From IMG/VR virus record IMGVR_UViG_3300009506_000022, positions 34,007 to 98,006 of that record: a stretch of DNA of 64,000 nt, one strand, 5' to 3'. The stretch is from a virus. The position numbers and the translations under genes are program-made. Below the pieces are notes generated by a model. That model saw only the letters and a program-made list of their open reading frames with translations, was not told the DNA's origin and ran no database searches. Numbering within the stretch: position 1 is the stretch's first letter; each line of letters starts with the position of its first letter. Below, piece by piece: positions 982 through 35,859 of the stretch.

Positions 982-1488
982 ATGGAAAGAAATGCTGTTA
1001 TCTCTATGTGTGGAAAATATCGCTATTGGTTATCTCGAAAATGGGATGATATTAACGATAACGAAATGGTTTGTTGGGTGATGTTGAATCCAAGTATTGC
1101 AGATGGAAATGTTGACGATCCAACAATCAGGAAATGTATTGGGTTCAGCAAACAAATAGGATCTGGCGGACTTCAGGTTGTAAATCTTTTTGCGTATCGA
1201 GCGACGAATCCAAGAGAACTTTTGAATGTTCGCGATCCAGTTGGTGTACAGAACTGTAGATGGTTGCGAGATATTCTTCTCAAAAGCAACAAGGTTATTT
1301 TTGCATGGGGTTCTAATGGAGGAAAGAAAAAGCTTATAGATGTAGGTCCTCTTATTTTAATAAACAACATAGTTTTGTTACAAAACATGCAAGAAAAATT
1401 TTTTCGTTTTGGTCTTACCAAAAACGGTCAACCACTTCATCCGCTTATGTTGCCGTATAGTAGCAAACTAGAGAGGGTTTATGAGTGA
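982..1488 (+). CDS. DUF1643 family protein
   Basis: S.CGKYRYWLSRKW, MLNPSIA, DDPTIRKC, VNLFAYRATNP, AWG, G.PLHPL signature motifs. Confidence 0.9.
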   Translation: MERNAVISMCGKYRYWLSRKWDDINDNEMVCWVMLNPSIADGNVDDPTIRKCIGFSKQIGSGGLQVVNLFAYRATNPRELLNVRDPVGVQNCRWLRDILLKSNKVIFAWGSNGGKKKLIDVGPLILINNIVLLQNMQEKFFRFGLTKNGQPLHPLMLPYSSKLERVYE

Positions 1489-13882: not shown

Positions 13883-14791
13883 ATGTTTTCATCACCGATG
13901 ATTAAATCAGGAAATGGAATCAAAAAGGTTCGAACTGGTTGGAAGCCAGATATTTTTGATCCACGAGATTTTGGCGAGCGTTCGCCACTCATTATTGAGA
14001 CAACAAAAGGACTCAACGTTTTGAGTCTGAGAGCCGAACAGCTTCCGAGAGAAGTTGTTTATTTTGACTATTGTGGTGAGATGGACGATCAAGGTGCGCT
14101 TGGTTCATGTGTGGCCTTTGGAACGTTGAACCATGTTGAATGCATGCAAGCACTTGCAACGGGAAAACATATTCGCGGTTCGCGGCGTGCTTTATACAAG
14201 ATCATGCGAAACCTCATGAAGGTGACGGGTGACACAGGAGCGTGGAACAGATTAGCATTTCAGGCATTGAGACTTTTTGGCCTTCCTCTTGAAGAATATT
14301 GGGAATACGATATCGAGAACTTTGATGATGAAGTTTCCGCTTTTGCTTTGGGGACTGGATTCAAGGCGATAAGCGACTTGAATTATTTCCGGCATGACAC
14401 TATCGATTTACCGCAAGAATGCATTCCAAGTTCGATCAAGAAATGGATGGCTGCTGGAGTGACCTGTGTAGGTGCGTTTTATGGTTGTTCGAATTTCAAT
14501 CGAGGTGGTAGACCTGGAGACATCCCGATGCCTCGCAACAGTGAGCGTCCATCGTGGGGACATTCAGTACATTTCTGTGGTTACAATGACGACTACGAAA
14601 TAGTAGATGTTGATACTGGAGAAAAGACGATAGGCGCCTTTTATCTCGAGAATTCATGGGGGAACGACAACGGAGATGGCGGGTTTTATGCCATTCCGTA
14701 TCAGTACATTATGGCGGGATATGCCCAAGATTTTTGGTCTTTAGTAGATCATAAATGGGTTGATCTCGACGATTTTGGCGCGATTGTTTAG
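13883..14791 (+). CDS. papain-like cysteine peptidase (C1 family)
   Basis: GWKPD..DPRD, DQGALGSCVAF (catalytic Cys), GHSV (His), ENSWG..NGDGGFY. Confidence 0.92.
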   Translation: MFSSPMIKSGNGIKKVRTGWKPDIFDPRDFGERSPLIIETTKGLNVLSLRAEQLPREVVYFDYCGEMDDQGALGSCVAFGTLNHVECMQALATGKHIRGSRRALYKIMRNLMKVTGDTGAWNRLAFQALRLFGLPLEEYWEYDIENFDDEVSAFALGTGFKAISDLNYFRHDTIDLPQECIPSSIKKWMAAGVTCVGAFYGCSNFNRGGRPGDIPMPRNSERPSWGHSVHFCGYNDDYEIVDVDTGEKTIGAFYLENSWGNDNGDGGFYAIPYQYIMAGYAQDFWSLVDHKWVDLDDFGAIV

Positions 14792-15968: not shown

Positions 15969-16394
15969 ATGGCAGATTTTAGTCCATATGTACCGTTGAG
16001 TGAGGACAACTTGCTCGAGGATAAATCAATCAATTCAGCTCCTCAGCGTGCACCGATTTTCACTGAGCACCGTTCAGTTTCTGGCGCGATTGATAGTGGC
16101 GACATAACAACTCGTGGTTGGGGAATGGTGATGTCTGAGTTCAAAACAGCTGTGATAAGAGTTGTTCCTGGAACGACTGCGAATATCACAGTTGAAGCTC
16201 GATTTTGGAGTGAGGATGCTGGCAAGTTTATTTCTGCAAATCCAGCGCTTCAACAAGCTGGTGCTGGTGCTGGAATTCCTTTTGATTACACTGTTGAGGT
16301 AAACGGAAAGATTCTTTTTGTTTATGTAACTGGAACAATCGGAAATGGCGCAAAGATTCAGATAGCTGGTGTTGATTTTATTTCAGAACCGTGA
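15969..16394 (+). CDS. hypothetical (beta-rich, probably structural) protein
   Basis: SD AAGGTG; preceded by hairpin TTCCCCTCGG/CCGAGGGGAA. Confidence 0.6.
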   Translation: MADFSPYVPLSEDNLLEDKSINSAPQRAPIFTEHRSVSGAIDSGDITTRGWGMVMSEFKTAVIRVVPGTTANITVEARFWSEDAGKFISANPALQQAGAGAGIPFDYTVEVNGKILFVYVTGTIGNGAKIQIAGVDFISEP

Positions 16395-17908
16395 TGGCAA
16401 AGACTGCGGAAATAGTACCACTCATTAGAGGTGCAGCAAAGAAGCTTGAGAGATTAGAGCGAAGCGAGTTGGTTTCTGTCTATGAACAGTATCGAACAGC
16501 TTCTAATGAGTGGCTTCGCAGGCAGATAGTAGAAAACAATAGAATAGATATATTAGCGACTGTCATCCTTGGATATAAAGTAAAACCGTTTCATTTGGCA
16601 ATGTTGAAATGGCAGTTTCGTTACCCTCAAAATCTTGTTCTATCGTTTCGTGGTTGTGGAAAATCAACGATATGCACAGTTATAAAAGCCATTCATTTGC
16701 ATTGTAAAAATCGTCAGCTTAGGATCTTGATTGTTTCGGAAAGTAAAGCAACAGCATCTGATATTTTGAGGGACATCAAAGGGCATTATGAAAGCAACGA
16801 TAGGTTGGCTGAAGTTTTTGGTTCTTTTTACGATCCAAAAATTGTCTCGAAATGGGATGTTTCAGCAATATCTATTGTCGGATCGCGACTGACACAAAAA
16901 GAGACTAGTATCATGTGTGCTGGTCCAGATACTCGGATCACAGGAAAGCATTTTGATGTTGGTTTGATCGATGATTTGGTTACAGAAGACAATTCGCGTA
17001 CTGAACATATGCGTGTTCGCGTAAAAACTTGGTATTATAAAACATATAGGCCTTTGATTTTGCCGCCAAAAGAAGGTCTTGAACATAGGGGAGAGCAACA
17101 TCATAACGGAACATTTTATCATTGGGATGATCACTATCATCACCTTGAAGCGAATGAACTAAAAGGCAAAGTTCTAAAAATTCCATCGTTAGATGAAAAC
17201 GATAACTCACCTTGGCCTGAAGAGTATTCAACTAAGTTTTTATTAAACCAAAAAGATGAGCTTGGTTCGATTGTTTTTGGTTCTCAATATCAGATGGACA
17301 CAGACGCAATGAAAGGTGAAATCTTTCAGTATGACGATTGCCACCAAATAGATGGAGCGGATTATCCCCCTATTTCTGACATGATCATAACGATGGGATG
17401 CGATCTTTCTGCGGACGAGAAAGAACAAAAACAGAATGCGATGTTTGCCATTGCTGTTATTGGGATAACTGGCAACATAGCAAAAGATGATATTTATATT
17501 TATCTATTAGATTATTATTTGCAGCATTTGAGACCAAGCAAACAACCAGAAAAGGTTATTGAATATTTTGATATATGGAATCCTTTTAGAGTCGGAATCG
17601 AAACAAATCAATATCAAGCTTCTTTGAAAGAGGCTGTAAAGCTGAAACGACCACAGATGAATGTGATAAAAATTCATTCTAAGATAGATAAAATAACTCG
17701 TGCGATAAATGATTCTAGATATTTTGAAAATGGAAGAGCGTTTTTCAAAAAAGGTGTGCACGCAAAGCCGATCGATCATTTAGTGTTGTTTTCTGCAAGA
17801 TCGAAATACAAAGATTTTTTTGATGCTTATGATTTCGCGCTGTACGCGGCAAAGAAAAAGAGAAACAAACAAGGAAAGCAAAAACGAAAAGTTTTTGGTG
17901 TCTTATAG
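16394..17908 (+). CDS. terL: terminase large subunit
   Basis: Walker A FRGCGKST, ITGKHFD..LIDD, GT.YH.DD, FGSQYQ, nuclease GCDLS and C-terminal D.FDA. Confidence 0.92.
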   Translation: MAKTAEIVPLIRGAAKKLERLERSELVSVYEQYRTASNEWLRRQIVENNRIDILATVILGYKVKPFHLAMLKWQFRYPQNLVLSFRGCGKSTICTVIKAIHLHCKNRQLRILIVSESKATASDILRDIKGHYESNDRLAEVFGSFYDPKIVSKWDVSAISIVGSRLTQKETSIMCAGPDTRITGKHFDVGLIDDLVTEDNSRTEHMRVRVKTWYYKTYRPLILPPKEGLEHRGEQHHNGTFYHWDDHYHHLEANELKGKVLKIPSLDENDNSPWPEEYSTKFLLNQKDELGSIVFGSQYQMDTDAMKGEIFQYDDCHQIDGADYPPISDMIITMGCDLSADEKEQKQNAMFAIAVIGITGNIAKDDIYIYLLDYYLQHLRPSKQPEKVIEYFDIWNPFRVGIETNQYQASLKEAVKLKRPQMNVIKIHSKIDKITRAINDSRYFENGRAFFKKGVHAKPIDHLVLFSARSKYKDFFDAYDFALYAAKKKRNKQGKQKRKVFGVL

Positions 17909-17917
17909 GAGGAATCG

Positions 17918-19711
17918 ATGGGAGAAATAACAAAAAACTCGAACTTGCCTCTTCCAGAATCCCCAGAATCTCTAGCGATAAGAAAAAGGAATGTTAGAGC
18001 TGTTTTGATAAATAGCGACATAATCAAAAAAGTTTCTACCGAAATAATAGAAAAACAAGAAGACACCGAAGTTGGAGGAAGCAAACAAGTAGAAACCGAG
18101 TTTGCAAAGTTGATTTCTTCTGGACAAGCTATTGATCCACCTTTTGATATGTTTGTTTTATCCACTCTTTCTGAGTACAACTCGGAAATGGGACCTTGCA
18201 TCGAGGCAATGAGAACCAACATAGATGGATTCGGTCATCGCTTGGTTTATCGTGGCGATCCAAAAGAGCTTGAAAACGATAAGCCGTTGGCAAAGAAGGT
18301 CTTAGAAGAAAAGGTTAGATTGGAAAACTTCTTCTTGTATGCTGGGCTCGATGATTCGTTTACAAAGATCAGAAAGAAAATGAGAACTGATCTTGAAAAG
18401 ACAGGGAATGCGTATTGGGAAGTTGTCCGCTCCATGAAAGGCGAGATTCAGTATTTTGTTCCAATAAAAAGCTATCAAGTTCGACTTACAAAACGCGACA
18501 AAGAACCAACAGAAGTAAACTTTCCTGTAGTAAAAATAGGACCTGATGGTAAATCGATCAAAAACGATTCGTTCAAAGTAAATACTTATTTCAGGAGATT
18601 TGTTCAGATCACATCGACAACATCTGTTGGCGCAAAAAAAAGTTGGTTCAAACAGTTTGGCGATCCAAGAATAATGGATTGCAAAACTGGGAGTTATGTT
18701 TCTCAAGGCGACTTGGAAAACTTCGAAGATACTGGCAAACCGATGCCAGCAAGTAGAAGGGCAAACGAAGTCGTTCATTGGAAAATGAATGACGATCGTT
18801 CCCCCTATGGATTGCCTCGATGGATTGGAATATTCCTTGATATTTTGGGAGACAGAAAAGCAAGCGAAATCAACTATATTACTTTTTGTAACAATAATAT
18901 TCCAAGCTTGATTATTGCGGTTTCGAACGGGCAACTAACACAAGATACAGTTGATCGCATCAAAGAGTTTTTCGAGAAAGTTCAAGGTGACGACAACCGT
19001 TCGAAAGCACTTGTGCTTGAAGCAGAACCATCAGATGAAGATGATGGAGAGGATGCTGGCGCGACCAAGATTGACGTAAAAACGCTAACGGAAGCGCAAC
19101 ATGATGATGCGATGTTCCAAAACTATAGTCGAGAGAACAGAGAAAAGGTTCGTGTTATCTGGCGCCTTCCTCCTATTTTCACTGGTAGAGCTCAAGACTA
19201 TACGAGAACAACGGCTGAAACTTCTAGAGCGTTAGCTGATGAGCAAATTTTCGCACCAGAACGAGACGATTTTGACGATTGGGTAAACCGTATTTTGTTT
19301 CCAAGAATGGGTGTTTTGTATCATCGTTTTCAATCGAACTCTCCAAATACAACTGATAACTCAGAACTTACAAAGATTCTTTCTGGCGCTGAGAAGACAG
19401 GAGGGATTACACCGCGGATCGCGAGAAAGGTTCTCGAGGATATTTTAAGCGTTGAACTTCCACCGTTTCCAGAGGACTTCAACCCAGATATTCCGTTTAG
19501 CCTGACAATGGCTGAAGCGGTAAAAAATATGGGAAACCCAGTTGAGCCAGGACAATCAGTTACAGCTCTAAAGGGGTTAGAGGATGTCGTGAAACTAACT
19601 GGAACGCCACACCCATTGATTAGTGCATTGATACTTCTTCGAAAGTCGCTTGAAGTCGAATGGTTGAAAGAGGTTTCTGAATCAGAATCAGAAGAAGAAC
19701 ATGTTGCGTAG
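17918..19711 (+). CDS. portal protein (PBSX/XkdE-like)
   Basis: CIEAMRTNIDGFG, DLEKTGNAYWEV.R, YGLPRW, F.NNNIP, D.MFQNY, ..LPPIF.G. Confidence 0.9.
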   Translation: MGEITKNSNLPLPESPESLAIRKRNVRAVLINSDIIKKVSTEIIEKQEDTEVGGSKQVETEFAKLISSGQAIDPPFDMFVLSTLSEYNSEMGPCIEAMRTNIDGFGHRLVYRGDPKELENDKPLAKKVLEEKVRLENFFLYAGLDDSFTKIRKKMRTDLEKTGNAYWEVVRSMKGEIQYFVPIKSYQVRLTKRDKEPTEVNFPVVKIGPDGKSIKNDSFKVNTYFRRFVQITSTTSVGAKKSWFKQFGDPRIMDCKTGSYVSQGDLENFEDTGKPMPASRRANEVVHWKMNDDRSPYGLPRWIGIFLDILGDRKASEINYITFCNNNIPSLIIAVSNGQLTQDTVDRIKEFFEKVQGDDNRSKALVLEAEPSDEDDGEDAGATKIDVKTLTEAQHDDAMFQNYSRENREKVRVIWRLPPIFTGRAQDYTRTTAETSRALADEQIFAPERDDFDDWVNRILFPRMGVLYHRFQSNSPNTTDNSELTKILSGAEKTGGITPRIARKVLEDILSVELPPFPEDFNPDIPFSLTMAEAVKNMGNPVEPGQSVTALKGLEDVVKLTGTPHPLISALILLRKSLEVEWLKEVSESESEEEHVA

Positions 19712-20813
19712 TCAAACAATACATAGCCATATGCATGATGGCATTTCTGCGATTGACGCTATTATCGGTAAGGCGTTGAAGGTGAGTGAACTTGCCAGGA
19801 TTGCGAAGATCGAAACGAATCTTAGAAAGTATATTGGTCGCGAATGGGACTCGTTGGCTTTAGATGCATCGAAACAAGCTGCAAGTGTAATCCGTTCTGG
19901 TTCTGGCGATCCGAATAATGATGATATCAACAGAATGATGGTGAAGATAAATCGCGTAATGAGCGATTGGAACGACAACATAGAGAAGCGATATATAGAT
20001 GACAACAAAGAGGTTTATGAACTTGCGCATATTGCAGCGATGAAGCGTTCTCTTGGCAAAAACAAGAAGCAATTAGAATACAATACGCCAATAGGGCCTG
20101 AAACGAAGGTAAGCAAAGCAAAAGATATCGTTTATGTTACAGGAGATGATGGCGCGCGAGTTCCTGTTGTTCTTCCCTCATTCAACACAGTTGATCTTGC
20201 GGCCATTGATGCTTTTGAGGAACATCAAGTTTTTTGGATCGGTCGACATTATAAAGAAAACGTTTCAAACACAGTTGCTGAAACCGCTCGAAACACGATT
20301 GTGAAAGCTGGTCTTGGACGCGAAGAAGCTGGAAAGATCGCGCAAAAAGTTGTTCGTGAAACGCTGGATATCGTGAAGGTTCCAGGTGGATTCAGTGGAA
20401 CATCAACACAGTATTTCGAAGGCTTGGTTGCGAACGCTGTTACAACACAACGTGTTGCGGCTCAACTCACGAGTTTCGAGCGATTTGGATACACAAAACA
20501 AACTATTGTAAATCCTCGTGATCAGAGGACGTGTCCTATATGCGATTTGATGGACGGAAAAGTTTTTGATGTTTCTGATGGAAGGCGAACTTTAGATAGA
20601 TTGGTCAAAGCGAAGAATCCTACTTCTGTAAAAAAGATTCAGCCATTTATGACAGTTGCGATCGCAAGAGAACTTACTGGTGGTAAACGCGGTCCTATTG
20701 GAGCCAAACAGACTAAAGCTATTGTCGCTAGAGGCAATTCGATTCCCCCATTTCATTTTAAATGTAGGTGCAGTATCGATATAACAGAGGAAGAAGAAAT
20801 CATTTCTTTTTGA
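19701..20813 (+). CDS. minor head protein (MuF / SPP1 gp7-like)
   Basis: D.RTCPICDLMDGKVF and PPFHFKCRC motifs; follows the portal gene. Confidence 0.88.
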   Translation: MLRSQTIHSHMHDGISAIDAIIGKALKVSELARIAKIETNLRKYIGREWDSLALDASKQAASVIRSGSGDPNNDDINRMMVKINRVMSDWNDNIEKRYIDDNKEVYELAHIAAMKRSLGKNKKQLEYNTPIGPETKVSKAKDIVYVTGDDGARVPVVLPSFNTVDLAAIDAFEEHQVFWIGRHYKENVSNTVAETARNTIVKAGLGREEAGKIAQKVVRETLDIVKVPGGFSGTSTQYFEGLVANAVTTQRVAAQLTSFERFGYTKQTIVNPRDQRTCPICDLMDGKVFDVSDGRRTLDRLVKAKNPTSVKKIQPFMTVAIARELTGGKRGPIGAKQTKAIVARGNSIPPFHFKCRCSIDITEEEEIISF

Positions 20814-20822
20814 GGAGTCAAT

Positions 20823-23800
20823 ATGAAAAACGAGCTACCAAAATCTGGAATAGTAGTTACCCCATCAAGTATGGCTGTTGCGATTTCCGAAGGTAGAAAA
20901 ACTATCTTGGTGAAGACGAGAAGCTACAATATTGCCAACAGAGAAATGTTACTTCTTGATCGCAACAAAGCGTTGGGTGTTGTAAAAATCGGAGAAGAAC
21001 AGGTTCTTCAAAACGATAATTTTGGCGAACATGAAGAACAACATCTGATTACAAAAGAGATCAGAAAAGACTGGTCTGAAGCTCAACCATCATGGGAAGA
21101 AGGGCCGTTCTTTCAATGGTCTGTCGAGATGGTTCAGAAATTTGATGAACCAATAAAGACTTATGTTGAGATTGGACCAACAGTTGTTATAGAAGAAATA
21201 AGTGAAATCGATATTGAAAAACGAGGACCTTTTGGACGTTGGGGTAGTTCAGGAATGTATGCTGAATGGCTTATAAAGCAGTTTCCAGAACACAAGAAGT
21301 ATGTCGAGCCATTTGCGGGTTCTGCTTCTATTTTCTTTCGAAAGCAACCTTCAGAATCTGAAGTTCTTGCTGACTACGATAGCGAGGTTGTAAATGCTCT
21401 GAAAACAATTAAAAAGTTGACGGAAGAACAATTTACAGTTCTCGAGTCTAAAGATCGCATCTTGTCCGAAGATAAGTGGAAGGAAATGAGAAGTAACATT
21501 CCTGAAGATTCTTTAGATAGGCTTCATCGAATGTTGTTCTTGAATGGTGGGGGTTGGAGTTCGAGTCTTATAAGCTATAGAATTCATAAAGATGGAAAGC
21601 AATCGTATGACCCGAATAGGCTGAAGCCGTACAAAGAGAGACTGAATAAAGGAAAAGTATCAATAGAATGTGCTGATTGGAAAGCGACGATTAATAAACA
21701 TGATTCAAAAGACACATTTTTCTTTATTGATTGTCCATATCCTGGAGAGTGGAGCAAAAAAGCCGATGATATTCCAAATGACGATCCAAAACGTGGCGAA
21801 AAAGTTCCTCTTGAGGAGTATGGAAAAGTCTTGAAGTCGATCAAGGGAAGTTTCGTTTTTGCGCTTGGTGATCACAAAGAACATCTCAAGTTTTTGAAAT
21901 CACTTGAAGGTGTTGAAATAAAAACGTTTAGTGGAACTGAAGCATCAAATAAAGGTGGAACAAAAACAGCAAAGAGATATTTTGCTTTTAAAACAGCGGC
22001 GTGTGGGAGCAAAAAACCAAAAAAGAAATCGTTTGACGAAGTCGAAACAGATGCAATGGAGTTTATCGATATAACAGAGGACCAACATGTTTTTGACGGG
22101 TTGATCCTAACAACAGAAAAAGAGGTGATTGACTACAGCACTTCTGAGTTAGTTGATATTCATAAATTGCTTCATCAGATATATTCAGAATTACCAGATG
22201 GTTGGAACACATCTGATGTTGTCAATTTACATTCGATGGTTGTTGATGAGTTGTGCTCAAGAGAAAAAAATCACCCGTCACCTCCAGATAATGGCCTTGA
22301 CGATATTTCTTTTGATTTTGAGTGTCTTACATCGAAACAAAAGAAATGGTTTGAAGAAAATTGCGACGAAGTTCCAGAAATTGAAGAGAGCATATCTTAT
22401 CTAGAAAAACGTCGACTTGCTTTATGGGGTTCCACCGCTGGAAAAAGCAGAGTTGCCAAAAGAATTGTGTCGATGATCCCAGAACACAAAACGTATGTCG
22501 AGCCGTTTGCTGGTGGTGCTGCTGTTTTTTATGCAAAAGAGCCAAGCGAAAAAGAGGTTCTTTGTGATTCAAATCCAGAAGTTACACACGCATTCAAGTT
22601 TGTTCAATCTGCAAGTGATAACGAAATCGAAGCGCTTAAGAAAATGGATTGGACAGTAAGCAAGCCTCGAGCAAAATCGGTTCATGAAATGAAACCAAAA
22701 GGAAGCGCTGAGAGATTTTTTAGGTTTGCTTATAAGAGATATGCGCTTTTTATGCGAAATGAAAATAGGATTACCGCAATAGATCCAGCAAAAGAAGGGA
22801 AGGCGCCAGATATAGCGAGTAGGATTTCCGAAACAAGAGAGAGACTGAAGAGGGTTTCTATTGTTGAAGGTGGATATGAAAAAGCGGTTAGTAAGTTTGA
22901 TTCGCCAGAAACATTCTTTTATTTCGATCCGCCATATCCAAGTTTGGTCCAGGAGGTTGGAGAGAAAAGCTTTGATGAGGAAGCTTTCATCAAAACACTG
23001 AAAGGCTTGAAGGGAAAGTTTCTTCTCCATTATGAAGCAAAAGCGAAAAAGAAATTTGATGGCGTTGATGGTTGGATTGTAAAAACCATTTCTGTTGCTC
23101 GTACTCCAGGTCATACAAAAGGAGGTAGCGCGCCAGGAAAACTTCTTGAAGTTAGAAATTATGAACTACCCAAAAAGAAGGTGAAGAAAAACGATCCGTA
23201 TTTGATGGCACCAGAAGGAGAGTTCCCTTTTTCAATACAACACCATTGGATTGGAAAATCGATGAACTCAGTTTTGAGAATCGGTGTTGTTCCAGACAGA
23301 TGTGCGATCGGTTGGGCGATGAATACTCAACAAACTGAAGTAAGCGAACCAGTAACAACTCTTGCGAAATCTCGAGAGATATCAAAAAACTCAAGCAATA
23401 TTTTCAGTGTTGATTGGTCTATTGGTAGATGGAACAAGAAAGGTGAAGAGGAACAACATATAGAGATTCTTTGTAAACGCCAATCTGTTTTTTCTCCTGT
23501 TTGGCTCGACATTGAGGCGAAAACCGCGAATCCAAAAGAAGGTGAACCATTACCTCTTGGCGGGAATCCGAAATATCCAGGTGTTTTCGAGATTGTAGAA
23601 AAAGGGGTAGTTCAGTTTGGCGCTCAAAGCGAAACTCTTCATGAATATTTTCTTTCTGGCACTGGATTCAAAGGAAAAACTATCTTTCGTATGATGAAGA
23701 TCAAAAAATCGATAGATGGTGATTGTCATGTTTGTGGAGTTGACGCAATAGTTGATGTTGGTTGGGCCGATGAACTCCCAGTGAAACTTTGTAAAAAATG

Positions 23801-24953
23801 CTATGACGATTGGCAAAAAAAGGAAGTGATAGAAAAATCATGCATTCCACAGATAGAATATGGTGACGATATTTCGTTCTGGGTTGGAACCAATTCGAAA
23901 GATGCTGTTCCATTTGTGCTATCCGAAAAAGCGGTGAGTAGCGAGTGGATGCCACCAGATGGCGTTGCCGCTTTACCTAAAGAGATCAAAAAACAAATTC
24001 CTAAAGAGTACGAATATTGGAATGAAGCTGGTAGTGATGCGAGACAGATGAGAGATCAACTTGTAAAGGCGATTCAAGAAAAAGATATTCCTCCTTTTGA
24101 TTTCGAGTCAATCTTCAAATCTGATAGCCAGAAATCTGGATTCGTTTTACAAAAGCAAATCTGGGAAGATAAGAGCGATCCACGCTGGTTCATTAGAATT
24201 GATACAGGCAAACCAGAAATAAACGTAATTGAATTGCAGTCAGACCCAACCAATATTGAAAAAAGTGAAGTCCGAGTTTGGGTAGAGAAATATAAGTCTT
24301 CAATGGATATCGAGGGGTTGTTGTCGGTTGCTCATTATCTAAATCCAAAGAAAGGGATTAGCTCGTATCTGAAGAAGGTTGATGTTGGAAACGCTTCTGT
24401 GTTGTCTGATTCTGAAGAATCTACTCAAATTGAGTTTAAAGGAGATATTCTGGATGGAGTATTTACGTTAAAGCGAAATAATAACGAGTACTTATTAGAG
24501 AGAAGCGGCAACGACACAATTGCTGAAATAGAGAAAATGATTGATTTTGAACTTGTTTTGCCAATCGATCATTTTGAAATCCACAAAGCAAAAAAAGGCA
24601 AGGAAAAACGGTTAGTTACTGGAATAGTACTTGAACCAGATATGGTTGATGCTCAAGACGACACCATCAAGTCTGAAGTGATCGAAAAAGCAGCTCATAT
24701 GTTTCTTACTCAGTACAACAAAGAAACGAAACTTGGTTTGATGCACACAACGTTTGGCGATATCGGATTTGAATTGTGTCAATCCTTTCTCTCTCCTGTT
24801 GAGTACACTGTAGGGAAAAAAACAGTAAAAAAAGGAAGCTGGGTAATGACAGTACATGTCACTGATGATAATAGATGGTATGATATAAAAAATCGCAGGC
24901 TCACTGGATTTAGTATTGGTGGGAAGGCGAGGATGGCGAAGAAGAATGGATAA
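20823..24953 (+). CDS. multidomain head polyprotein: ASCH-like + 2x Dam-family adenine MTase + 2x LigD-PE-like + XkdF-type prohead serine protease
   Basis: YVEPFAGSASIFF...FFIDCPY (21222-21990); GKSRVA...YVEPFAGGAAVF...FYFDPPY (22410-23165); C-terminal RLVTGIVLEPD.VDAQDD...LMH...KGSWV...TGFSIGG. Confidence 0.88.
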   Translation: MKNELPKSGIVVTPSSMAVAISEGRKTILVKTRSYNIANREMLLLDRNKALGVVKIGEEQVLQNDNFGEHEEQHLITKEIRKDWSEAQPSWEEGPFFQWSVEMVQKFDEPIKTYVEIGPTVVIEEISEIDIEKRGPFGRWGSSGMYAEWLIKQFPEHKKYVEPFAGSASIFFRKQPSESEVLADYDSEVVNALKTIKKLTEEQFTVLESKDRILSEDKWKEMRSNIPEDSLDRLHRMLFLNGGGWSSSLISYRIHKDGKQSYDPNRLKPYKERLNKGKVSIECADWKATINKHDSKDTFFFIDCPYPGEWSKKADDIPNDDPKRGEKVPLEEYGKVLKSIKGSFVFALGDHKEHLKFLKSLEGVEIKTFSGTEASNKGGTKTAKRYFAFKTAACGSKKPKKKSFDEVETDAMEFIDITEDQHVFDGLILTTEKEVIDYSTSELVDIHKLLHQIYSELPDGWNTSDVVNLHSMVVDELCSREKNHPSPPDNGLDDISFDFECLTSKQKKWFEENCDEVPEIEESISYLEKRRLALWGSTAGKSRVAKRIVSMIPEHKTYVEPFAGGAAVFYAKEPSEKEVLCDSNPEVTHAFKFVQSASDNEIEALKKMDWTVSKPRAKSVHEMKPKGSAERFFRFAYKRYALFMRNENRITAIDPAKEGKAPDIASRISETRERLKRVSIVEGGYEKAVSKFDSPETFFYFDPPYPSLVQEVGEKSFDEEAFIKTLKGLKGKFLLHYEAKAKKKFDGVDGWIVKTISVARTPGHTKGGSAPGKLLEVRNYELPKKKVKKNDPYLMAPEGEFPFSIQHHWIGKSMNSVLRIGVVPDRCAIGWAMNTQQTEVSEPVTTLAKSREISKNSSNIFSVDWSIGRWNKKGEEEQHIEILCKRQSVFSPVWLDIEAKTANPKEGEPLPLGGNPKYPGVFEIVEKGVVQFGAQSETLHEYFLSGTGFKGKTIFRMMKIKKSIDGDCHVCGVDAIVDVGWADELPVKLCKKCYDDWQKKEVIEKSCIPQIEYGDDISFWVGTNSKDAVPFVLSEKAVSSEWMPPDGVAALPKEIKKQIPKEYEYWNEAGSDARQMRDQLVKAIQEKDIPPFDFESIFKSDSQKSGFVLQKQIWEDKSDPRWFIRIDTGKPEINVIELQSDPTNIEKSEVRVWVEKYKSSMDIEGLLSVAHYLNPKKGISSYLKKVDVGNASVLSDSEESTQIEFKGDILDGVFTLKRNNNEYLLERSGNDTIAEIEKMIDFELVLPIDHFEIHKAKKGKEKRLVTGIVLEPDMVDAQDDTIKSEVIEKAAHMFLTQYNKETKLGLMHTTFGDIGFELCQSFLSPVEYTVGKKTVKKGSWVMTVHVTDDNRWYDIKNRRLTGFSIGGKARMAKKNG

Positions 24954-25797
24954 GCCGCAATCTTCAAAACAAAACCTAAAAGATGCCAACGAGATTCTTG
25001 AGCTATTCGTAGGCGAGGTTTCGGTGGTAGATAAGCCAGCTAATCTGCGAGATTTTTTGGTAGTCAAAAGAAGAAACAAGGAGGACTCGATGGGACAAGC
25101 TTTTCAGCAGGATCCTGAGGTCGACAATTTAGAGTTAGTAGAAAAACTAGCTTGGTCAGACCTTGAGAAAGCGGCGCTGCCTGATGATCTAAAGAAAATG
25201 ATCGACTCAGCAGTTGCCTGGATGAAAAAAAACGCAAGTGCTGAGAACGCGCCGAAAGAAGCGATTCTTGCTGCTACAGCACTTCTATCAAAGGTTGCTG
25301 GCGGGAAGTTCCCTGGCACAGCACCGAAATCGAAGGATGATGATAAAGACAAGAGCGATGATAGCAAAGATAAGAAAAAGTCTTTGTTGGTTGTTGGAGA
25401 TGACGGTTCTTTTGAGATCGGCGGTGAGCCTATCGAAAAAGGGAAATCTCAGTTTACCAAAGAAAGAGTTGACGCTTTGAAAAATGCAATAGCGCCTTTG
25501 ATTGGCGTATATGCTCAAGTTGATGAAGCCGGTGCGAAAGAGATGGTTCAAAACCTTGTTGGCGAAACTCTTTCTGGTGAAATAAAGTGGACAGAAAAGC
25601 GTGTTCCAGAACCAACCGATATCGCAGAACAGATCAAGAAGGCAATGGAACCTTTTGCTGAACAAATCAAAGAGGTTGGAAAGCGAGTTGAAGACCTCGA
25701 GGGTTCTCGCTCAGCTCCACAATCTGATCCTGGTGATGGTGACACCACCGACAAACAAAAAAGTGACAACCCTTGGGATGGCTTGCCGATAGGCTAG
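24946..25797 (+). CDS. capsid scaffolding protein with N-terminal protease fragment (internal start at 25090)
   Basis: EVSVVDKPAN at the N-terminus; charged coiled-coil body; C-terminal W-x-G motif; directly precedes the MCP gene. Confidence 0.75.
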   Translation: MDKPQSSKQNLKDANEILELFVGEVSVVDKPANLRDFLVVKRRNKEDSMGQAFQQDPEVDNLELVEKLAWSDLEKAALPDDLKKMIDSAVAWMKKNASAENAPKEAILAATALLSKVAGGKFPGTAPKSKDDDKDKSDDSKDKKKSLLVVGDDGSFEIGGEPIEKGKSQFTKERVDALKNAIAPLIGVYAQVDEAGAKEMVQNLVGETLSGEIKWTEKRVPEPTDIAEQIKKAMEPFAEQIKEVGKRVEDLEGSRSAPQSDPGDGDTTDKQKSDNPWDGLPIG

Positions 25798-25854
25798 CTT
25801 TGCCGCAGTGGCTTTTTCGCAACCCTTATAGGTTTATTTTATCAGGAGGAAATC

Positions 25855-27066
25855 ATGGGTTTATCAAATGAAGAACTTGCAATGATCCAGAAGGCTATTA
25901 CCGCGGCAAACGTCCTAGTTTCTGCAGGAAAGCTAAATCCAGTACAGGCCTCGAAGTTTCTCGATTATGTGATCGACACCACCGTTATGAAGAACAATGT
26001 TCGTATTGTTCGTTTTCGTAACGAGAAGATGGAGATCAATAAACTCGATATCGGGAATCGAGTTATGTTTCCTGGAACCGAGTATCAAGCTCCACAAGAG
26101 CGTCAAGGGGTTACATCTTCCAAGCTCGAGCTTCAACCGAAAGAGGTTGTTTGTGCTTTCGATATCACCGACACCTTCAAGAATCAAAATATCGAAGGTG
26201 ATAACGCCGCTGATCACATCATGCGGATGTTTGCAACGGGTTGGGGAAACAACATGGAAGAGACAGCGATCAACGGTGATGTCGTTGGTCCAGCTGGTCT
26301 TGAAAATGATGTGTGGGGGTCTGGCTCAACCACACAATACGTCCTTGATTCTTTGCTGGCTTTATTTGACGGTTGGTGGCGTAAAGCAGATGGCGCTCAT
26401 CTCGTTAATATGAATGGTGCAAATGTTGGAATCAGTGTTTTTCGGAAGATGTTGACTGCAATGCCAGCCAAGTTCAAAAAGCAACGGCGTAATCTTCGAT
26501 GGCTTGTTTCCGATGAGTTGGCGGATGTGTATATCGAAAAGGTTTCAACACGCCAAACAGCGAAGGGTGATCGTGCGGCTGAAGGCGAGGAACAATCTCC
26601 TCTTGGAATCCCCATGGTGAGAATCCCGGGATTGCCTTTTAACCCAAAGATCGTTCAACATGTCGCGCTTCCGAACGACACCGCAGTAGCTTTACGCTAC
26701 AAACCGATTGTTTCTGCTTCAGAGGTAGTGACACCAAGCACGTTGGATCGAACTCCAGTGACTCCATATGTTGAGGGAACCGCCTATGATATGGATTACG
26801 TCAATGGGACGATCACAAATCCAAGTGGTGACGCAACTATCGGTGATGGCGATACTGTCAAGATCACTTACGAAGCGGCTCCTCAAATCATTCTAACCCA
26901 TTGGCAGAACTTCATTCTTGCTTTTGGGATGGATGATCTCAAAGTCGAGAGACAACGCAATATCCACAAGCGCGCTGATGAGTATGTTATGAGTGGTCGG
27001 TTTGACCAACTGATTGAAAACCTCGATGCTTGCGTCAAGGGATACAATCTAGGGGATAGTCTATAG
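25855..27066 (+). CDS. major capsid protein (XkdG-like, HK97 fold)
   Basis: G.LNP.QA..F, NIEGD, E..AINGD, DGW; strong SD AGGAGG; position after the scaffold gene. Confidence 0.9.
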   Translation: MGLSNEELAMIQKAITAANVLVSAGKLNPVQASKFLDYVIDTTVMKNNVRIVRFRNEKMEINKLDIGNRVMFPGTEYQAPQERQGVTSSKLELQPKEVVCAFDITDTFKNQNIEGDNAADHIMRMFATGWGNNMEETAINGDVVGPAGLENDVWGSGSTTQYVLDSLLALFDGWWRKADGAHLVNMNGANVGISVFRKMLTAMPAKFKKQRRNLRWLVSDELADVYIEKVSTRQTAKGDRAAEGEEQSPLGIPMVRIPGLPFNPKIVQHVALPNDTAVALRYKPIVSASEVVTPSTLDRTPVTPYVEGTAYDMDYVNGTITNPSGDATIGDGDTVKITYEAAPQIILTHWQNFILAFGMDDLKVERQRNIHKRADEYVMSGRFDQLIENLDACVKGYNLGDSL

Positions 27067-34757: not shown

Positions 34758-35170
34758 TGGCGCGTTATCCAAGATTACTACATCCAGTTCCTGTTCAGAT
34801 TGAACAGGCAAATAGGAGCAATACGGCTTACGATGATGATGCACGAGAGCCAGTTGGCCAAGTGGCGGTCAATTCTGTTGTTACGATAAACGGTCAAGTA
34901 AAGTATGGTTCGAGCAAGCAACTTGGATATCAATCTGGCGCTGGAGTTCAAGAAAATGAAAAGGGATACGTTTTGTTTAGACAACGCGATCTTGATGCAA
35001 ATTCTGTTGAGCTTCAACCAAGCGATCGAATAATAAAAATAGGACGAGTAGATCACGATGTTTATATATCTAGACTTATGCCAACTGGGCATTATGGAGA
35101 GCATGGTGGCAACACTCTTTTGAAAGCATTTTTTGAGGATAGACAACCATCAAAACATAGGAGCCGATGA
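34757..35170 (+). CDS. head closure/stopper protein
   Basis: YDDDAREP...GY.LF...L...DRI; position after the adaptor gene. Confidence 0.6.
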   Translation: MARYPRLLHPVPVQIEQANRSNTAYDDDAREPVGQVAVNSVVTINGQVKYGSSKQLGYQSGAGVQENEKGYVLFRQRDLDANSVELQPSDRIIKIGRVDHDVYISRLMPTGHYGEHGGNTLLKAFFEDRQPSKHRSR

Positions 35171-35859
35171 TGGAAGAATATATTTATATACAAAAAGCAA
35201 ATTTGACTTTGATGAAGGACGAATCAGTAAGAGATTATGAAATGGCGCTTCGTACAAAAATAAATGAAGATTTAGCAAATCTAAAGACTCCATCGCCTAC
35301 AGGGAATGTTCCAAATCTTTGGGTTCAGTACCTCTATGCAGATAGAGCAATAATCGAATGTTATGATCATTCGACTTCAAATGAGAAGTATTACGAGGTT
35401 CCATATAAGCGCGATTCTAAAGGGATTTTTACTTTAGGTAAGCCAGTTGAAGTTAGCGAGAGAAAAACGTTTATCCCAGTTCCAGTTCAGAAAGCTGTTT
35501 GGACAACTGCGTTTATCAATAAACTTCCAGACAATTCGTTTCTTCATATTGAAAGTGGCGGGAAAAAAGATGGTGAAGGAAAGACTGTTCCTAGAAGTTT
35601 GAGGCATTTTCCTTACAAAGACAGCGAAGGAAAAATTGATCTCCCACATCTTCGAAATGCAATTGCAAGAATTCCACAAGCAAAGATTTCTGGAATGACG
35701 AAACAGGACCTTGATGTTCTTCAAACAAAAGCACAAGCGATGCTTGAGAAAGAGAACGCGAGACGCGAACGAGAAATGAAACAGGACAAGAAAAAGTTTC
35801 TGAGAGAGTGTGGATTTGATAGGATCCCAAGTCAGCTTTGGGATGGATTACCAGTATAG
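35167..35859 (+). CDS. putative internal head (cargo) protein
   Basis: WTTAFINKLPD.SF...SLRHFPY...GKIDLPHLRNAIAR domain; IQKA/VQKA motifs; C-terminal WDGLPV. Confidence 0.7.
   Translation: MMEEYIYIQKANLTLMKDESVRDYEMALRTKINEDLANLKTPSPTGNVPNLWVQYLYADRAIIECYDHSTSNEKYYEVPYKRDSKGIFTLGKPVEVSERKTFIPVPVQKAVWTTAFINKLPDNSFLHIESGGKKDGEGKTVPRSLRHFPYKDSEGKIDLPHLRNAIARIPQAKISGMTKQDLDVLQTKAQAMLEKENARREREMKQDKKKFLRECGFDRIPSQLWDGLPV

What the first reader, a model, noticed from the sequence alone, without database searches (positions are those of the whole stretch)
21213..25896. A recurring hydrophobic-x-Lys motif marks polyprotein domain boundaries and the capsid N-terminus: a probable self-cleavage code
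Seen: IEK-R right before MTase 1, LEK-R right before MTase 2, VKK-N before PE-like 1, IKK-S and IEK-S flanking the Zn finger, IFK-S before PE-like 2, and IEK-M and IHK-A before the protease. The same motif appears in MCP (IQK-A at aa 11-14), scaffold (VVK-R, LEK-A, IEK-G, IKK-A), portal (IEK-Q, LRK-S) and MuF (IGK-A, VSK-A). Established: HK97-family proteases cut after Lys (HK97 Lys103). Inference: the polyprotein is cut into free enzymes inside the head. Caveat: the proteins are Lys-rich, so chance matches occur; the positional bias is the evidence.
Basis: partly seen in the sequence, partly recalled or inferred. Interest (0 to 1): 0.75.

Follow-up and report, generated by a model that had tools for sequence, protein, structure and literature searches.

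The report
Lysine cleavage code in phage head
A short signal (valine or isoleucine, any residue, then lysine) recurs at domain junctions and protein ends of this virus's head proteins and of over a hundred relatives. It is most likely where the head-maturation protease cuts, releasing DNA-modifying enzymes packed inside the capsid.

Summary
Within this window alone the statistics are weak: [ILVF]-x-K in the 1376-aa protein is 47 observed against 38 expected (z 2.1). Against AlphaFold-defined linkers the positional bias is not significant (7 of 49 sites, 5.2 expected, p 0.25).

Comparison with relatives gives much stronger evidence.
- In about 80 related viral contigs and 64 related giant proteins, [ILVM]-x-K-[ASGRQ] is 3.4-fold over-represented in scaffolds (z 22) and 2.4-fold in cargo-protease polyproteins (z 15).
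- It is not over-represented in terminase or tail proteins. Arg and Glu at the same position show no excess in scaffolds and polyproteins.
- The capsid N-terminal site is kept in nearly all of 109 homologues.
- 25 of 29 adenine-methyltransferase domains have the motif 3-8 residues upstream. The same junction motif precedes ligase and LigD-phosphoesterase domains.
- Cultured Bacillus, Streptomyces and Rhodococcus phages with XkdF-type proteases show the same pattern. Published virion mass spectrometry of Bacillus phage 0105phi7-2 is compatible with loss of the capsid protein's first 10-11 residues.

Most likely this is the cleavage code of an XkdF-type prohead protease, refined to [V/I>L]-x-K|[A/S/R/Q/G]. 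The portal sites are not conserved. Two sites are conserved boundaries of XkdF proteases generally. No proteomic data confirm cutting.

Other first-stage notes on this genome flagged the same stretch.

The parts
20823..24953 (+). 1376-aa cargo-protease polyprotein. Order: N-terminal domain (aa 1-115), D12 adenine methyltransferase 1 (~137-390), helical region (~430-510), D12 methyltransferase 2 (~535-780), LigD-phosphoesterase-like domain 1 (~791-962), Zn ribbon (~963-1000), middle domain, phosphoesterase-like domain 2 (~1105-1228), XkdF-type protease (~1245-1376).
   Evidence: Pfam PF02086 (two stretches) and PF14550; PHROG hits; AlphaFold models; Foldseek match to LigD 3'-phosphoesterase structures 3p4h and 3n9b, probability 1.0, target TM 0.62-0.83.
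21213..21224 (+). IEK|R junction site, 3 residues before methyltransferase 1.
   Evidence: Lies in the pLDDT<50 linker 116-141. 25 of 29 D12 domains in the family have [ILVM]-x-K 3-8 aa upstream.
22401..22412 (+). LEK|R junction site before methyltransferase 2.
   Evidence: Lies in the pLDDT<50 linker 511-530; conserved as [VIL]-E-K in relatives.
23181..23192 (+). VKK|N junction site before phosphoesterase-like domain 1.
   Evidence: Low-confidence linker. Lys kept in 33 of 36 distant members, hydrophobic P3 in 22, P1' mostly Gln.
23700..23711 (+). IKK|S at the end of phosphoesterase-like domain 1, before the Zn ribbon (weaker candidate).
   Evidence: At a strand end with pLDDT 92. Lys in 24 of 36 members, hydrophobic P3 in 18.
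23829..23840 (+). IEK|S junction site after the Zn ribbon.
   Evidence: Coil, pLDDT about 56. Lys in 24 of 31 members, hydrophobic P3 in 21.
24111..24122 (+). IFK|S before phosphoesterase-like domain 2 (weak candidate).
   Evidence: pLDDT 92 at a helix end. Lys in 20 of 36 members; P3 is mostly aromatic and [ILVM] in only 5.
24528..24539 (+). IEK|M in the linker before the protease domain.
   Evidence: pLDDT about 46. An x-E-K-[RQ] island sits in an otherwise variable Ala/Pro/Glu linker in about half of the members.
24579..24590 (+). IHK|A on the first strand of the protease domain; a conserved XkdF feature, possibly structural or the mature N-terminus.
   Evidence: [IVL]-x-K is present in essentially all 64 family members. 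It is also present in the cargo-free proteases of phages 0105phi7-2 and BillNye.
24946..25797 (+). Scaffold protein; the ATG at 24946 overlaps the polyprotein stop. Its first ~50 residues carry the strand that in other XkdF proteins belongs to the protease polypeptide. Candidate sites: VVK|R 25060-25071, VEK|L 25138-25149, LEK|A 25162-25173, IEK|G 25432-25443, IKK|A 25633-25644.
   Evidence: Sequence. VVK|R is conserved in 49 of 51 scaffolds and IEK|G in 46 of 51. The scaffold family has 3.4-fold excess of the motif. The equivalent strand is in the protease polypeptide of 0105phi7-2 and BillNye.
25855..27066 (+). Major capsid protein (phrog_1623 type, no delta domain) with the predicted propeptide site IQK|A at 25885-25896.
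   Evidence: PHROG hit. [ILVM]-x-K|[AGS] is kept in nearly all of 109 homologues of 37-86% identity and in cultured Bacillus, Streptomyces, Rhodococcus and Vibrio phages.
19701..20813 (+). MuF-like minor head protein with IGK|A (19764-19775) and VSK|A (20109-20120).
   Evidence: Pfam PF04233. Sites conserved in 45 of 55 and 40 of 55 homologues. The second is a [VI]-x-K-A island in a gap-rich variable linker.
17918..19711 (+). Portal protein. IKK|V (18023-18034) and LTK|I (19367-19378) are partly conserved.
   Evidence: The portal family shows no motif excess (1.07).
35167..35859 (+). Probably another internal head protein.
   Evidence: Sites conserved in 14 of 16 and 13 of 16 homologues. Motif excess 38 against 14, z 7.7.

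Best explanation
The motif is the substrate code of the virus's XkdF-type (Pfam PF14550) prohead serine protease, with cleavage after Lys where a beta-branched or aliphatic residue sits at P3. The best consensus is (D/E)-[V/I>L/M]-x-K|[A/S/R/Q/G]. The protease is the C-terminal domain of a 1376-aa protein that also carries two D12 adenine methyltransferases, two LigD-phosphoesterase-like domains and a Zn ribbon. Inferred sequence of events: the protease domain takes this cargo into the assembling prohead, possibly by pairing with the N-terminal strand of the scaffold, which in other XkdF proteins is part of the protease polypeptide. Once enclosed, the protease cuts the flexible junctions. This would free the enzymes, chop the scaffold at about eight sites so its pieces can leave, and remove 13 residues from the capsid protein. 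It would also trim MuF and the 230-aa protein at 35167-35859. The freed enzymes would stay in the head and enter the host with the DNA, to methylate or repair it. Shown here: the motif, its Lys-specific and head-protein-specific excess, and its conservation at junctions and termini. Inferred: that it is cut, by this protease, inside the head, and that the cargo is ejected.
For: (1) Excess in representatives clustered below 45% identity: scaffolds 251 against 73 for [ILVM]-x-K-[ASGRQ] (z 22), polyproteins 238 against 101 (z 15), the 35167 family 38 against 14 (z 7.7). Terminase, tail and other classified proteins are at about 1.0. The same pattern with Arg or Glu in place of Lys shows no significant excess in scaffolds or polyproteins (z -0.9 to 1.5). 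(2) Around Lys in scaffolds, P3 is V (2.4x) or I (2.25x), P4 is D/E, and P1' is S/R/A. (3) Junction conservation: 25 of 29 D12 methyltransferase domains have the motif 3-8 aa upstream (27 of 29 if T or A is allowed at P3). The same [VL]-E-K follows the same upstream domain whether the next domain is a methyltransferase or a ligase. The junctions before phosphoesterase domain 1 and after the Zn ribbon keep Lys in 33 of 36 and 24 of 31 distant members, whereas this protein's in-domain cargo sites are not kept as the motif (two keep Lys without a hydrophobic P3). (4) BLAST homology blocks start and end about twice as often at motif sites as at background positions. (5) The capsid N-terminal site is kept in 109 homologues. 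MuF and scaffold sites are kept in 73-96% of homologues, some as islands in unalignable linkers. (6) Scaffolds hold 11-12% Lys and the same excess across genomes of 30-70% GC. (7) Cultured phages with XkdF protease-scaffold fusions show the same excess: 0105phi7-2 17 against 3.2 (z 8.1), B83 16 against 2.9 (z 8.8), BillNye 10 against 2.5 (z 5.2), Trina z about 3. Their capsid proteins have I/L-x-K|A/V at residues 6-13. (8) Virion mass spectrometry of 0105phi7-2 found abundant peptide 12-38 of the capsid protein and nothing from residues 1-10 (PMC10219371). (9) The five best-conserved junction sites (K133, K529, K789, K1005, K1238) lie in low-confidence linkers of the AlphaFold models.
Against: There is no direct proteomic or biochemical evidence for cutting in this virus or any close relative. 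The 0105phi7-2 data used trypsin, which also cuts after Lys, and residues 1-11 give tryptic peptides too short to detect, so they cannot discriminate. Within the window alone the positional bias is not significant. Conserved [ILVM]-x-K also occurs inside the folded capsid protein (K63, K372, K395) and inside the protease domain (K1289, K1337), so conservation alone does not mean cleavage. P3 is T, A or aromatic at some junctions. The capsid propeptide itself is highly conserved, which would also fit a retained functional N-arm. Vibrio phage Ares1 shows no scaffold excess. The cleavage specificity of XkdF-type proteases was not found in the papers searched.
Confidence: 0.6

Rival explanations
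1. The motif is functional and selected but is not a cleavage site. It could be a recurring contact element of internal head proteins, such as a short strand-end or helix-cap element, or a Lys-based contact with DNA or the capsid interior.
For: Several conserved instances lie in well-folded parts: capsid K63, K372 and K395, protease K1289 and K1337, and IHK|A on the first protease strand. The capsid N-terminal 13 residues are themselves conserved.
Against: A contact motif would not be expected immediately upstream of unrelated enzyme domains (methyltransferase, ligase, phosphoesterase) within short acidic linkers. It would also not be expected about eight times per scaffold in unalignable low-complexity regions. 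The P1' preference for small or basic residues and the depletion of V/L/I there looks like a protease subsite pattern.
Confidence: 0.15
2. The sites are cleaved, but by a different protease: a host enzyme (as host Prp trims capsid and scaffold of Staphylococcus phage 80alpha, from general knowledge) or the papain-family cysteine peptidase encoded at 13883-14791.
For: A Peptidase_C1 homologue lies just upstream of the packaging genes (Pfam PF00112, E 6e-8). No experiment links XkdF proteases to Lys specificity.
Against: The motif travels with XkdF-type proteases in unrelated hosts (Bacillus, Streptomyces, Rhodococcus, a Myxococcota prophage), which argues against a host-specific enzyme. Papain-family enzymes select mainly at P2, whereas here P2 is variable and P3 is selected (enzyme preference from general knowledge). 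The excess is confined to proteins expected inside the prohead, where the fused protease sits.
Confidence: 0.1
3. The pattern is chance in Lys-rich proteins, and the reader picked boundary-adjacent matches after the fact.
For: Within this window the excess is small (z about 2). Linker enrichment of the broad motif is not significant (p 0.25). 42 of the 49 polyprotein sites are inside domains.
Against: Family-wide z-scores of 9-22 after redundancy reduction. Controls with Arg or Glu in place of Lys show no significant excess in scaffolds or polyproteins. Site-by-site conservation across 37-86% identity.
Confidence: 0.05

Closest known systems
T4 gp21 prohead protease (MEROPS S77) and its L/I-x-E cleavage code; phiKZ gp175 and SPN3US gp245 with the A/S/G-x-E code
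   Same: A head-maturation serine protease recognises a three-residue code with a defined P3 and P1. It uses the code on the capsid propeptide, on scaffold or core proteins (many cuts) and on internal proteins that are later ejected (T4 from general knowledge; SPN3US papers PMC10052503 and PMC7411985 seen).
   Different: P1 is Lys here, not Glu; [ILVM]-x-E shows no excess. The protease family differs (PF14550). In T4 and phiKZ the cargo proteins are separate genes with targeting propeptides, whereas here the cargo is fused to the protease itself.
HK97 gp4 protease (Pfam PF04586, MEROPS S78), which cuts the capsid protein after Lys103
   Same: Cleavage after Lys at the capsid protein N-terminal region; the protease is enclosed in the prohead and self-digests (general knowledge; the 102-residue removal is cited in PMC10219371).
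   Different: HK97 removes a 102-residue scaffolding delta domain; here the capsid protein would lose only 13 residues and a separate scaffold exists. The protease here matches PF14550 and not PF04586. One comparative study calls XkdF peptidases unrelated to the SH-fold prohead peptidases (PMC7824862).
Polyvalent proteins of phages and conjugative elements (Iyer et al. 2017, PMC5512222)
   Same: Very large late-gene proteins string together N6-adenine methylases, 2H phosphoesterases, InPase and other effector domains. They are proposed to be packaged in the head, processed by a built-in peptidase and delivered with the DNA. The family here has the same shuffled-cassette character.
   Different: The hub peptidase in that work is a zincin-like metallopeptidase. 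Here the only peptidase is the prohead protease, which could give both capsid targeting and release. In what I read of that paper, via keyword look-ups, no prohead-protease fusion and no cleavage motif was described; 'DNA ligase' has no occurrences and 'prohead' one, a passage I did not read.
Phage P1 DarB and the Dar system
   Same: A DNA methyltransferase-containing protein is packaged in the capsid and delivered to protect incoming DNA from restriction (PMC9024508).
   Different: DarB is targeted by its N-terminal 30 residues with helper proteins, not by fusion to the protease. P1 capsid processing is after Glu120.
XkdF-type protease-scaffold fusions of cultured phages (Bacillus 0105phi7-2 gp5, B83 gp09, Streptomyces BillNye gp22, Rhodococcus Trina gp71)
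   Same: Same protease family, same capsid protein family, same Lys motif excess in the scaffold part and the same capsid N-terminal site.
   Different: These have no N-terminal enzyme cargo, and protease and scaffold are one polypeptide. In this virus and its relatives the scaffold is a separate, translationally overlapping gene.

Membership tests
Peptidase_S78_2 / XkdF-type prohead protease (Pfam PF14550) | Significant match to the family profile over its whole length | tested here: met
   PF14550 E 5e-26, 91.6 bits against a cut-off of 24, profile positions 5-123 of 126, residues 1253-1370; phrog_3017 head maturation protease.
Peptidase_S78_2 / XkdF-type prohead protease (Pfam PF14550) | Conserved candidate catalytic Ser and His | tested here: inconclusive
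   S1364 (in G-F-S-I-G-G), H1292 and H1308 are invariant in the five-sequence alignment, and these columns stay invariant in the 42-row alignment A4. Which residues are catalytic was not tested.
Peptidase_S78_2 / XkdF-type prohead protease (Pfam PF14550) | Strand with the S-x-V-D-x-P-A-N motif in the same polypeptide | tested here: not met
   The strand is at the N-terminus of the next gene (scaffold, 24946 onward), as in all relatives examined. It is inside the protease polypeptide in 0105phi7-2 (N-terminal) and BillNye (C-terminal).
HK97-type prohead protease (Pfam PF04586, S78) | Match to the PF04586 profile | tested here: not met
   The Pfam scan at E up to 0.01 returned only PF14550 for the protease region.
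T4-type maturation cleavage code (L/I-x-E) | Glu at P1 with aliphatic P3, enriched in head-internal proteins | tested here: not met
   [ILVM]-x-E observed/expected is 1.0-1.06 in scaffold and polyprotein families, against 1.8 and 1.3-1.4 for Lys.
Maturation-protease cleavage code (general kind) | Motif over-represented specifically in proteins located inside the prohead | tested here: met
   scaffold, polyprotein, MuF, the 35167 family (and the capsid protein in the unclustered set only) are enriched; terminase and tail proteins are not.
Maturation-protease cleavage code (general kind) | Mature protein N-termini begin at P1' | not testable with these tools
   The only indirect data are the tryptic virion MS of 0105phi7-2 (PMC10219371), which is compatible but ambiguous.
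Polyvalent proteins (Iyer et al. 2017) | Two or more unrelated effector domains in one polypeptide, with shuffled architectures among relatives | tested here: met
   Relatives carry D12 and C5 methylases, ATP-dependent ligase, 2H/LigT, PALP, InPase and inteins in varying order.
Polyvalent proteins (Iyer et al. 2017) | Gene lies among virion late genes | tested here: met
   The order terminase, portal, MuF, polyprotein, scaffold, capsid protein is conserved.
Polyvalent proteins (Iyer et al. 2017) | Zincin-like metallopeptidase (MPTase) as the processing domain | tested here: not met
   No such Pfam hit in P0001 or in five large relatives. The MPTase is a frequent hub in that work, not an absolute requirement.
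LigD 3'-phosphoesterase domain | Fold match to solved phosphoesterase domains | tested here: met
   Foldseek 3p4h, 3p43, 3n9b, 3n9d, 2lj6 and 5dmp; probability 1.0, target TM 0.59-0.83. Which of the two domains matched, and whether catalytic residues are intact, was not resolved.
D12 class N6-adenine DNA methyltransferase | Profile match and the D-P-P-Y catalytic motif | tested here: met
   PF02086 E 4.5e-30 with two stretches. Domain 2 has D-P-P-Y and domain 1 has the variant D-C-P-Y (sequence).

The most novel reading that the evidence does not exclude
XkdF-type prohead proteases of many tailed phages (Bacillus, Streptomyces, Rhodococcus phages, Myxococcota prophages and a large uncultured clade) may share an undescribed cleavage code, [V/I]-x-K|small or basic residue. 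One clade may have used it to build a new class of polyvalent protein. In that class, trains of DNA methyltransferases, ATP-dependent ligases and LigD-type phosphoesterases are fused to the protease, which both carries them into the capsid and then releases them. The protease would be completed in trans by a strand donated by the scaffold protein.
Probability: 0.4. Interest if true: 0.8.

Novelty: new variant of a known kind. Interest (0 to 1): 0.64.

Why it matters
If correct, the code lets mature head-protein boundaries be predicted from sequence alone for every phage with an XkdF-type protease, a common and little-studied family. It would explain how the capsid protein of phages such as 0105phi7-2 can lack a visible propeptide yet lose its first residues. 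It would also define a new way of loading enzymes into capsids, by fusing them to the maturation protease with cleavable junctions. The cargo seen here (methyltransferases, ligase, LigD phosphoesterase, 2H enzymes) points to protection or repair of the injected genome at the moment of entry, which bears on phage counter-defence. The junction motif could also be useful for packaging foreign proteins into phage heads. The idea can be tested directly on phages already in culture.

Tried and rejected
- Positional bias within P0001 alone, using AlphaFold-defined linkers: not significant for the broad motif.
I replaced it with the search for related loci on an alignment.
- Near-identical cultured relatives: none in the phage collection.
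- Literature on XkdF cleavage specificity: nothing found.
- Halovirus phiCh1 protein E: I recall that processing was reported, but could not find the site in held papers. Its N-terminus has T-E-K|N at residues 14-17, noted only as a lead.
- Asgard archaeal host, suggested by Thorarchaeota labels on two capsid homologues: not supported. The nearest matches in cellular genomes are Myxococcota MAGs, one locus lying inside a 2-Mb contig and so probably a prophage.
- Programmed frameshift joining protease and scaffold: rejected. The overlapping or adjacent start and stop (ATGGATAA in this window) has no slippery site, and a separate abutting or overlapping scaffold ORF is found in the four relatives examined.
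- Amphipathic-helix or coiled-coil periodicity as the cause of the excess: rejected. Arg, Glu, Asp and Gln at the same position are much less enriched than Lys or not at all, and hydrophobic-x-x-Lys is depleted in scaffolds.
- The HSP-boundary test gave only about a two-fold signal and no permutation p-value was computed, so it counts as supporting evidence only.

Full report
**Context.** The window is the right-hand 64 kb of a 98-kb viral contig from IMG/VR. All genes lie on the + strand. A tail sheath homologue marks it as a myovirus. The head module reads:
- large terminase, 16391-17908
- portal, 17918-19711
- MuF-like protein, 19701-20813
- a 1376-aa protein, 20823-24953
- scaffold, 24946-25797
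- major capsid protein, 25855-27066

The 1376-aa protein has two D12 adenine-methyltransferase domains and a C-terminal XkdF-type protease domain (PF14550, 91.6 bits). AlphaFold models of residues 780-1376 (pLDDT 84) and 1-800 (pLDDT 74) resolve its domains and linkers. Foldseek matches the middle region to LigD 3'-phosphoesterase structures with probability 1.0 and target TM 0.59-0.83.

**Observation.** Taken on the window alone the signal is weak.
- Shuffle tests give 47 against 37.8 in the polyprotein (z 2.1), and z 0.7-1.6 in portal, MuF, scaffold and capsid protein.
- With linkers defined as pLDDT<50 segments, 7 of 49 broad-motif sites fall in 145 linker residues against 5.2 expected (p 0.25).
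- Only [ILV]-[EDQ]-K is enriched there, 4 of 10 against 1.1 expected (p 0.015).

**Relatives.** A protein search found 113 capsid homologues of 37-100% identity, the window's own protein included, of which 109 longer than 380 aa were aligned. It also found 64 giant proteins (768-2052 aa) that end in the same protease. Their cargo varies: D12 and C5 methylases, ATP-dependent DNA ligase, 2H/LigT phosphoesterase, PALP, InPase, and even inteins. An alignment-based scan of viral contigs returned 80 loci, many with 10-kb flanks and the same gene order. I called ORFs in these loci and classified them against the window's proteins.

**Family-wide statistics.** Observed over expected for [ILVM]-x-K:

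| Protein family | Observed/expected |
|---|---|
| scaffold | 1.79 |
| capsid protein | 1.47 |
| homologues of the 230-aa gene at 35167 | 1.40 |
| polyprotein | 1.32 |
| MuF | 1.28 |
| portal | 1.07 |
| terminase | 0.79 |
| tail and other proteins | 1.04-1.06 |

After clustering below 45% identity, [ILVM]-x-K-[ASGRQ] gives:

| Family (representatives) | Observed | Expected | z |
|---|---|---|---|
| scaffolds (32) | 251 | 73 | 22 |
| polyproteins (18) | 238 | 101 | 15 |
| 35167 family (7) | 38 | 14 | 7.7 |

- The same pattern with Arg or Glu in place of Lys shows no significant excess in scaffolds or polyproteins (z -0.9 to 1.5).
- An unbiased scan of all gapped dipeptides in 60 polyproteins ranked V-x-K first and I-x-K fifth. 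K-A was the top adjacent dipeptide.
- Around Lys in scaffolds, P3 is V (2.4x) or I (2.25x), P4 is acidic, P1' is S/R/A, and V/L/I are depleted at P1'.
- Scaffolds keep 11-12% Lys and the same excess in genomes from 30 to 70% GC. This argues for selection on Lys itself.
- Hydrophobic-x-x-Lys is depleted in scaffolds (0.61). The pattern is therefore not coiled-coil periodicity.

**Site conservation.**
- Capsid protein: the N-terminus reads M-x-N-E-E-L-[VIL]-x-K-A in nearly all of 109 homologues.
- Methyltransferases: 25 of 29 D12 domains have [ILVM]-x-K, mostly [VI]-E-K, 3-8 residues before the first conserved motif. The count is 27 of 29 if T or A is allowed at P3. The segment upstream of the motif is acidic and variable.
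- Ligase: the same [VL]-E-K follows one particular upstream domain whether a methyltransferase or a ligase comes next, and many ligase domains are preceded by it.
- Junctions in distant members: the junction before phosphoesterase domain 1 keeps Lys in 33 of 36, and the one after the Zn ribbon in 24 of 31. The in-domain motif copies of this protein's cargo region are not kept as the motif: two (812, 885) keep Lys without a hydrophobic P3, and the others mostly lose it.
- Scaffold: VVK|R is kept in 49 of 51 and IEK|G in 46 of 51.
- MuF: IGK|A is kept in 45 of 55 and VSK|A in 40 of 55. The latter is a clear island in a gap-rich linker.
- 35167 family: the two sites are kept in 14 and 13 of 16.
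- BLAST homology blocks among 86 polyproteins start and end about twice as often at motif sites as elsewhere, against about 1.0-1.6 for the control patterns. No permutation p-value was computed.

**Cautions.**
- Conserved [ILVM]-x-K also occurs inside the folded capsid protein (K63, K372, K395) and inside the protease domain (K1289, K1337). Conservation alone therefore does not prove cutting.
- IHK|A lies on the first strand of the protease domain, and the scaffold VVK|R closes the S-x-V-D-x-P-A-N strand. Both are also present in XkdF proteases with no cargo. In Bacillus phage 0105phi7-2 that strand is N-terminal, and in Streptomyces phage BillNye it follows the G-F-S-I-G-G motif. These two sites mark the edges of the protease fold. 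They may be autoprocessing sites, as for P2 gpO by analogy, or purely structural.

**Cultured relatives.** The capsid family extends to several cultured phages at about 24-33% identity.
- Capsid N-termini carry I-E-K|A (0105phi7-2 and B83), L-E-K|V (BillNye and Trina) and I-Q-K|A (Vibrio phage Ares1) at residues 6-13.
- Protease-scaffold fusion proteins show the same excess: 17 against 3.2 (z 8.1), 16 against 2.9 (z 8.8), 10 against 2.5 (z 5.2) and z about 3. Ares1 shows none.
- The 0105phi7-2 paper reports that virion mass spectrometry found many spectra for capsid peptide 12-38 and no coverage of residues 1-10. Its authors concluded that the first 10 residues were absent (PMC10219371). This fits cutting at I-E-K11|A12. 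Trypsin was used, however, and residues 1-11 give very short tryptic peptides, so the result is compatible rather than decisive.

**Mechanism proposed.** The motif is read as the substrate code of the XkdF-type protease.
1. The cargo train rides into the prohead attached to the protease.
2. The scaffold N-terminal strand probably completes the protease fold and tethers it. This is inferred from the split arrangement, which is conserved in all relatives examined.
3. The enclosed protease cuts accessible linkers. This frees methyltransferase 1 with the helical region, methyltransferase 2, phosphoesterase domain 1 with the Zn ribbon, and the middle domain with phosphoesterase domain 2.
4. The protease also fragments the scaffold and trims the capsid protein, MuF and the 35167 protein.

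Packaging, release and delivery of the cargo are inferred by analogy with T4 internal proteins, phiKZ and SPN3US ejection proteins, P1 DarB, and the polyvalent proteins of Iyer et al..

**Comparison with what is known.** It works like the T4 (L/I-x-E) and phiKZ/SPN3US (A/S/G-x-E) codes but with Lys at P1, in a different protease family. The HK97 Lys103 cut is an analogy only, because the protease here does not match PF04586. Polyvalent proteins are the closest concept for the cargo train. Those are described with a zincin-like metallopeptidase as the processing hub, not the prohead protease. I found no paper that gives the specificity of XkdF-type proteases. I rate the finding a new variant of a known kind.

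**Host.** Two capsid homologues carry Thorarchaeota MAG labels. The only clear matches in cellular genomes are Myxococcota MAGs. One locus lies inside a 2-Mb contig and is probably a prophage; it has the same capsid N-terminus and scaffold features. I therefore treat the host as an unknown bacterium, possibly Myxococcota.

**Verdict.** It is weakly supported in the window and strongly supported by comparison with relatives. The cleavage-code reading is the best explanation (about 0.6), with the corrections above. It can be tested directly on cultured phages.

Noticed in passing
24946-25100 (scaffold N-terminus) and 24900-24953: The protease domain ends about 10 residues after G-F-S-I-G-G. The strand with the S-x-V-D-x-P-A-N motif, which in other XkdF proteins is part of the protease polypeptide, is encoded at the start of the next gene (the ATGGATAA start/stop overlap). 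Four relatives examined have the same separate, abutting or overlapping scaffold ORF, and the strand motif is at the scaffold N-terminus in the ~50-sequence alignment. In 0105phi7-2 the strand is N-terminal to the protease core, and in BillNye it is C-terminal. This looks like a split, trans-completed protease.
   Followed up: partly
35167-35859: A 230-aa protein among the neck genes starts with a capsid-like propeptide ending I-Q-K|A and has a second V-Q-K|A. It ends in W-D-G-L-P like the scaffold C-terminus. Homologues keep both Lys sites. It is probably another internal head protein with a shared C-terminal targeting peptide.
   Followed up: partly
13883-14791: A papain-family cysteine peptidase homologue (PF00112, E 6e-8) is encoded just upstream of the packaging genes. 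Its role is unknown. It is a possible alternative processing enzyme or a lysis or host-directed factor.
   Followed up: no
P0122-P0180 (relatives of the polyprotein): Relatives carry ATP-dependent DNA ligase together with LigD-type phosphoesterase domains, that is, a LigD-like end-repair kit without the polymerase. They also carry C5 methylases, 2H/LigT, InPase and PALP domains. P0128 has an intein with a LAGLIDADG endonuclease inside the ligase.
   Followed up: partly
21222-23184: The two methyltransferase domains differ in the catalytic tetrapeptide: D-C-P-Y in domain 1 and D-P-P-Y in domain 2. Domain 1 may have altered or lost activity.
   Followed up: no
L086 (Myxococcota MAG, 2-Mb contig) and L085: Prophage-like loci in Myxococcota genomes have capsid proteins 48-49% identical. 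L086, read in detail, has the same capsid N-terminus and scaffold features; L085 shows the same capsid N-terminus. Its protease-bearing protein is only 537 aa. This gives the first host hint for the clade and argues against the Thorarchaeota labels on some MAG contigs.
   Followed up: partly
1481-3451 and 56437-57882: A UvrD/Rep-type helicase and a ResIII/DEAD (UvsW or XPB-like) helicase flank the structural region. These are ordinary replication or repair genes of a large phage.
   Followed up: no
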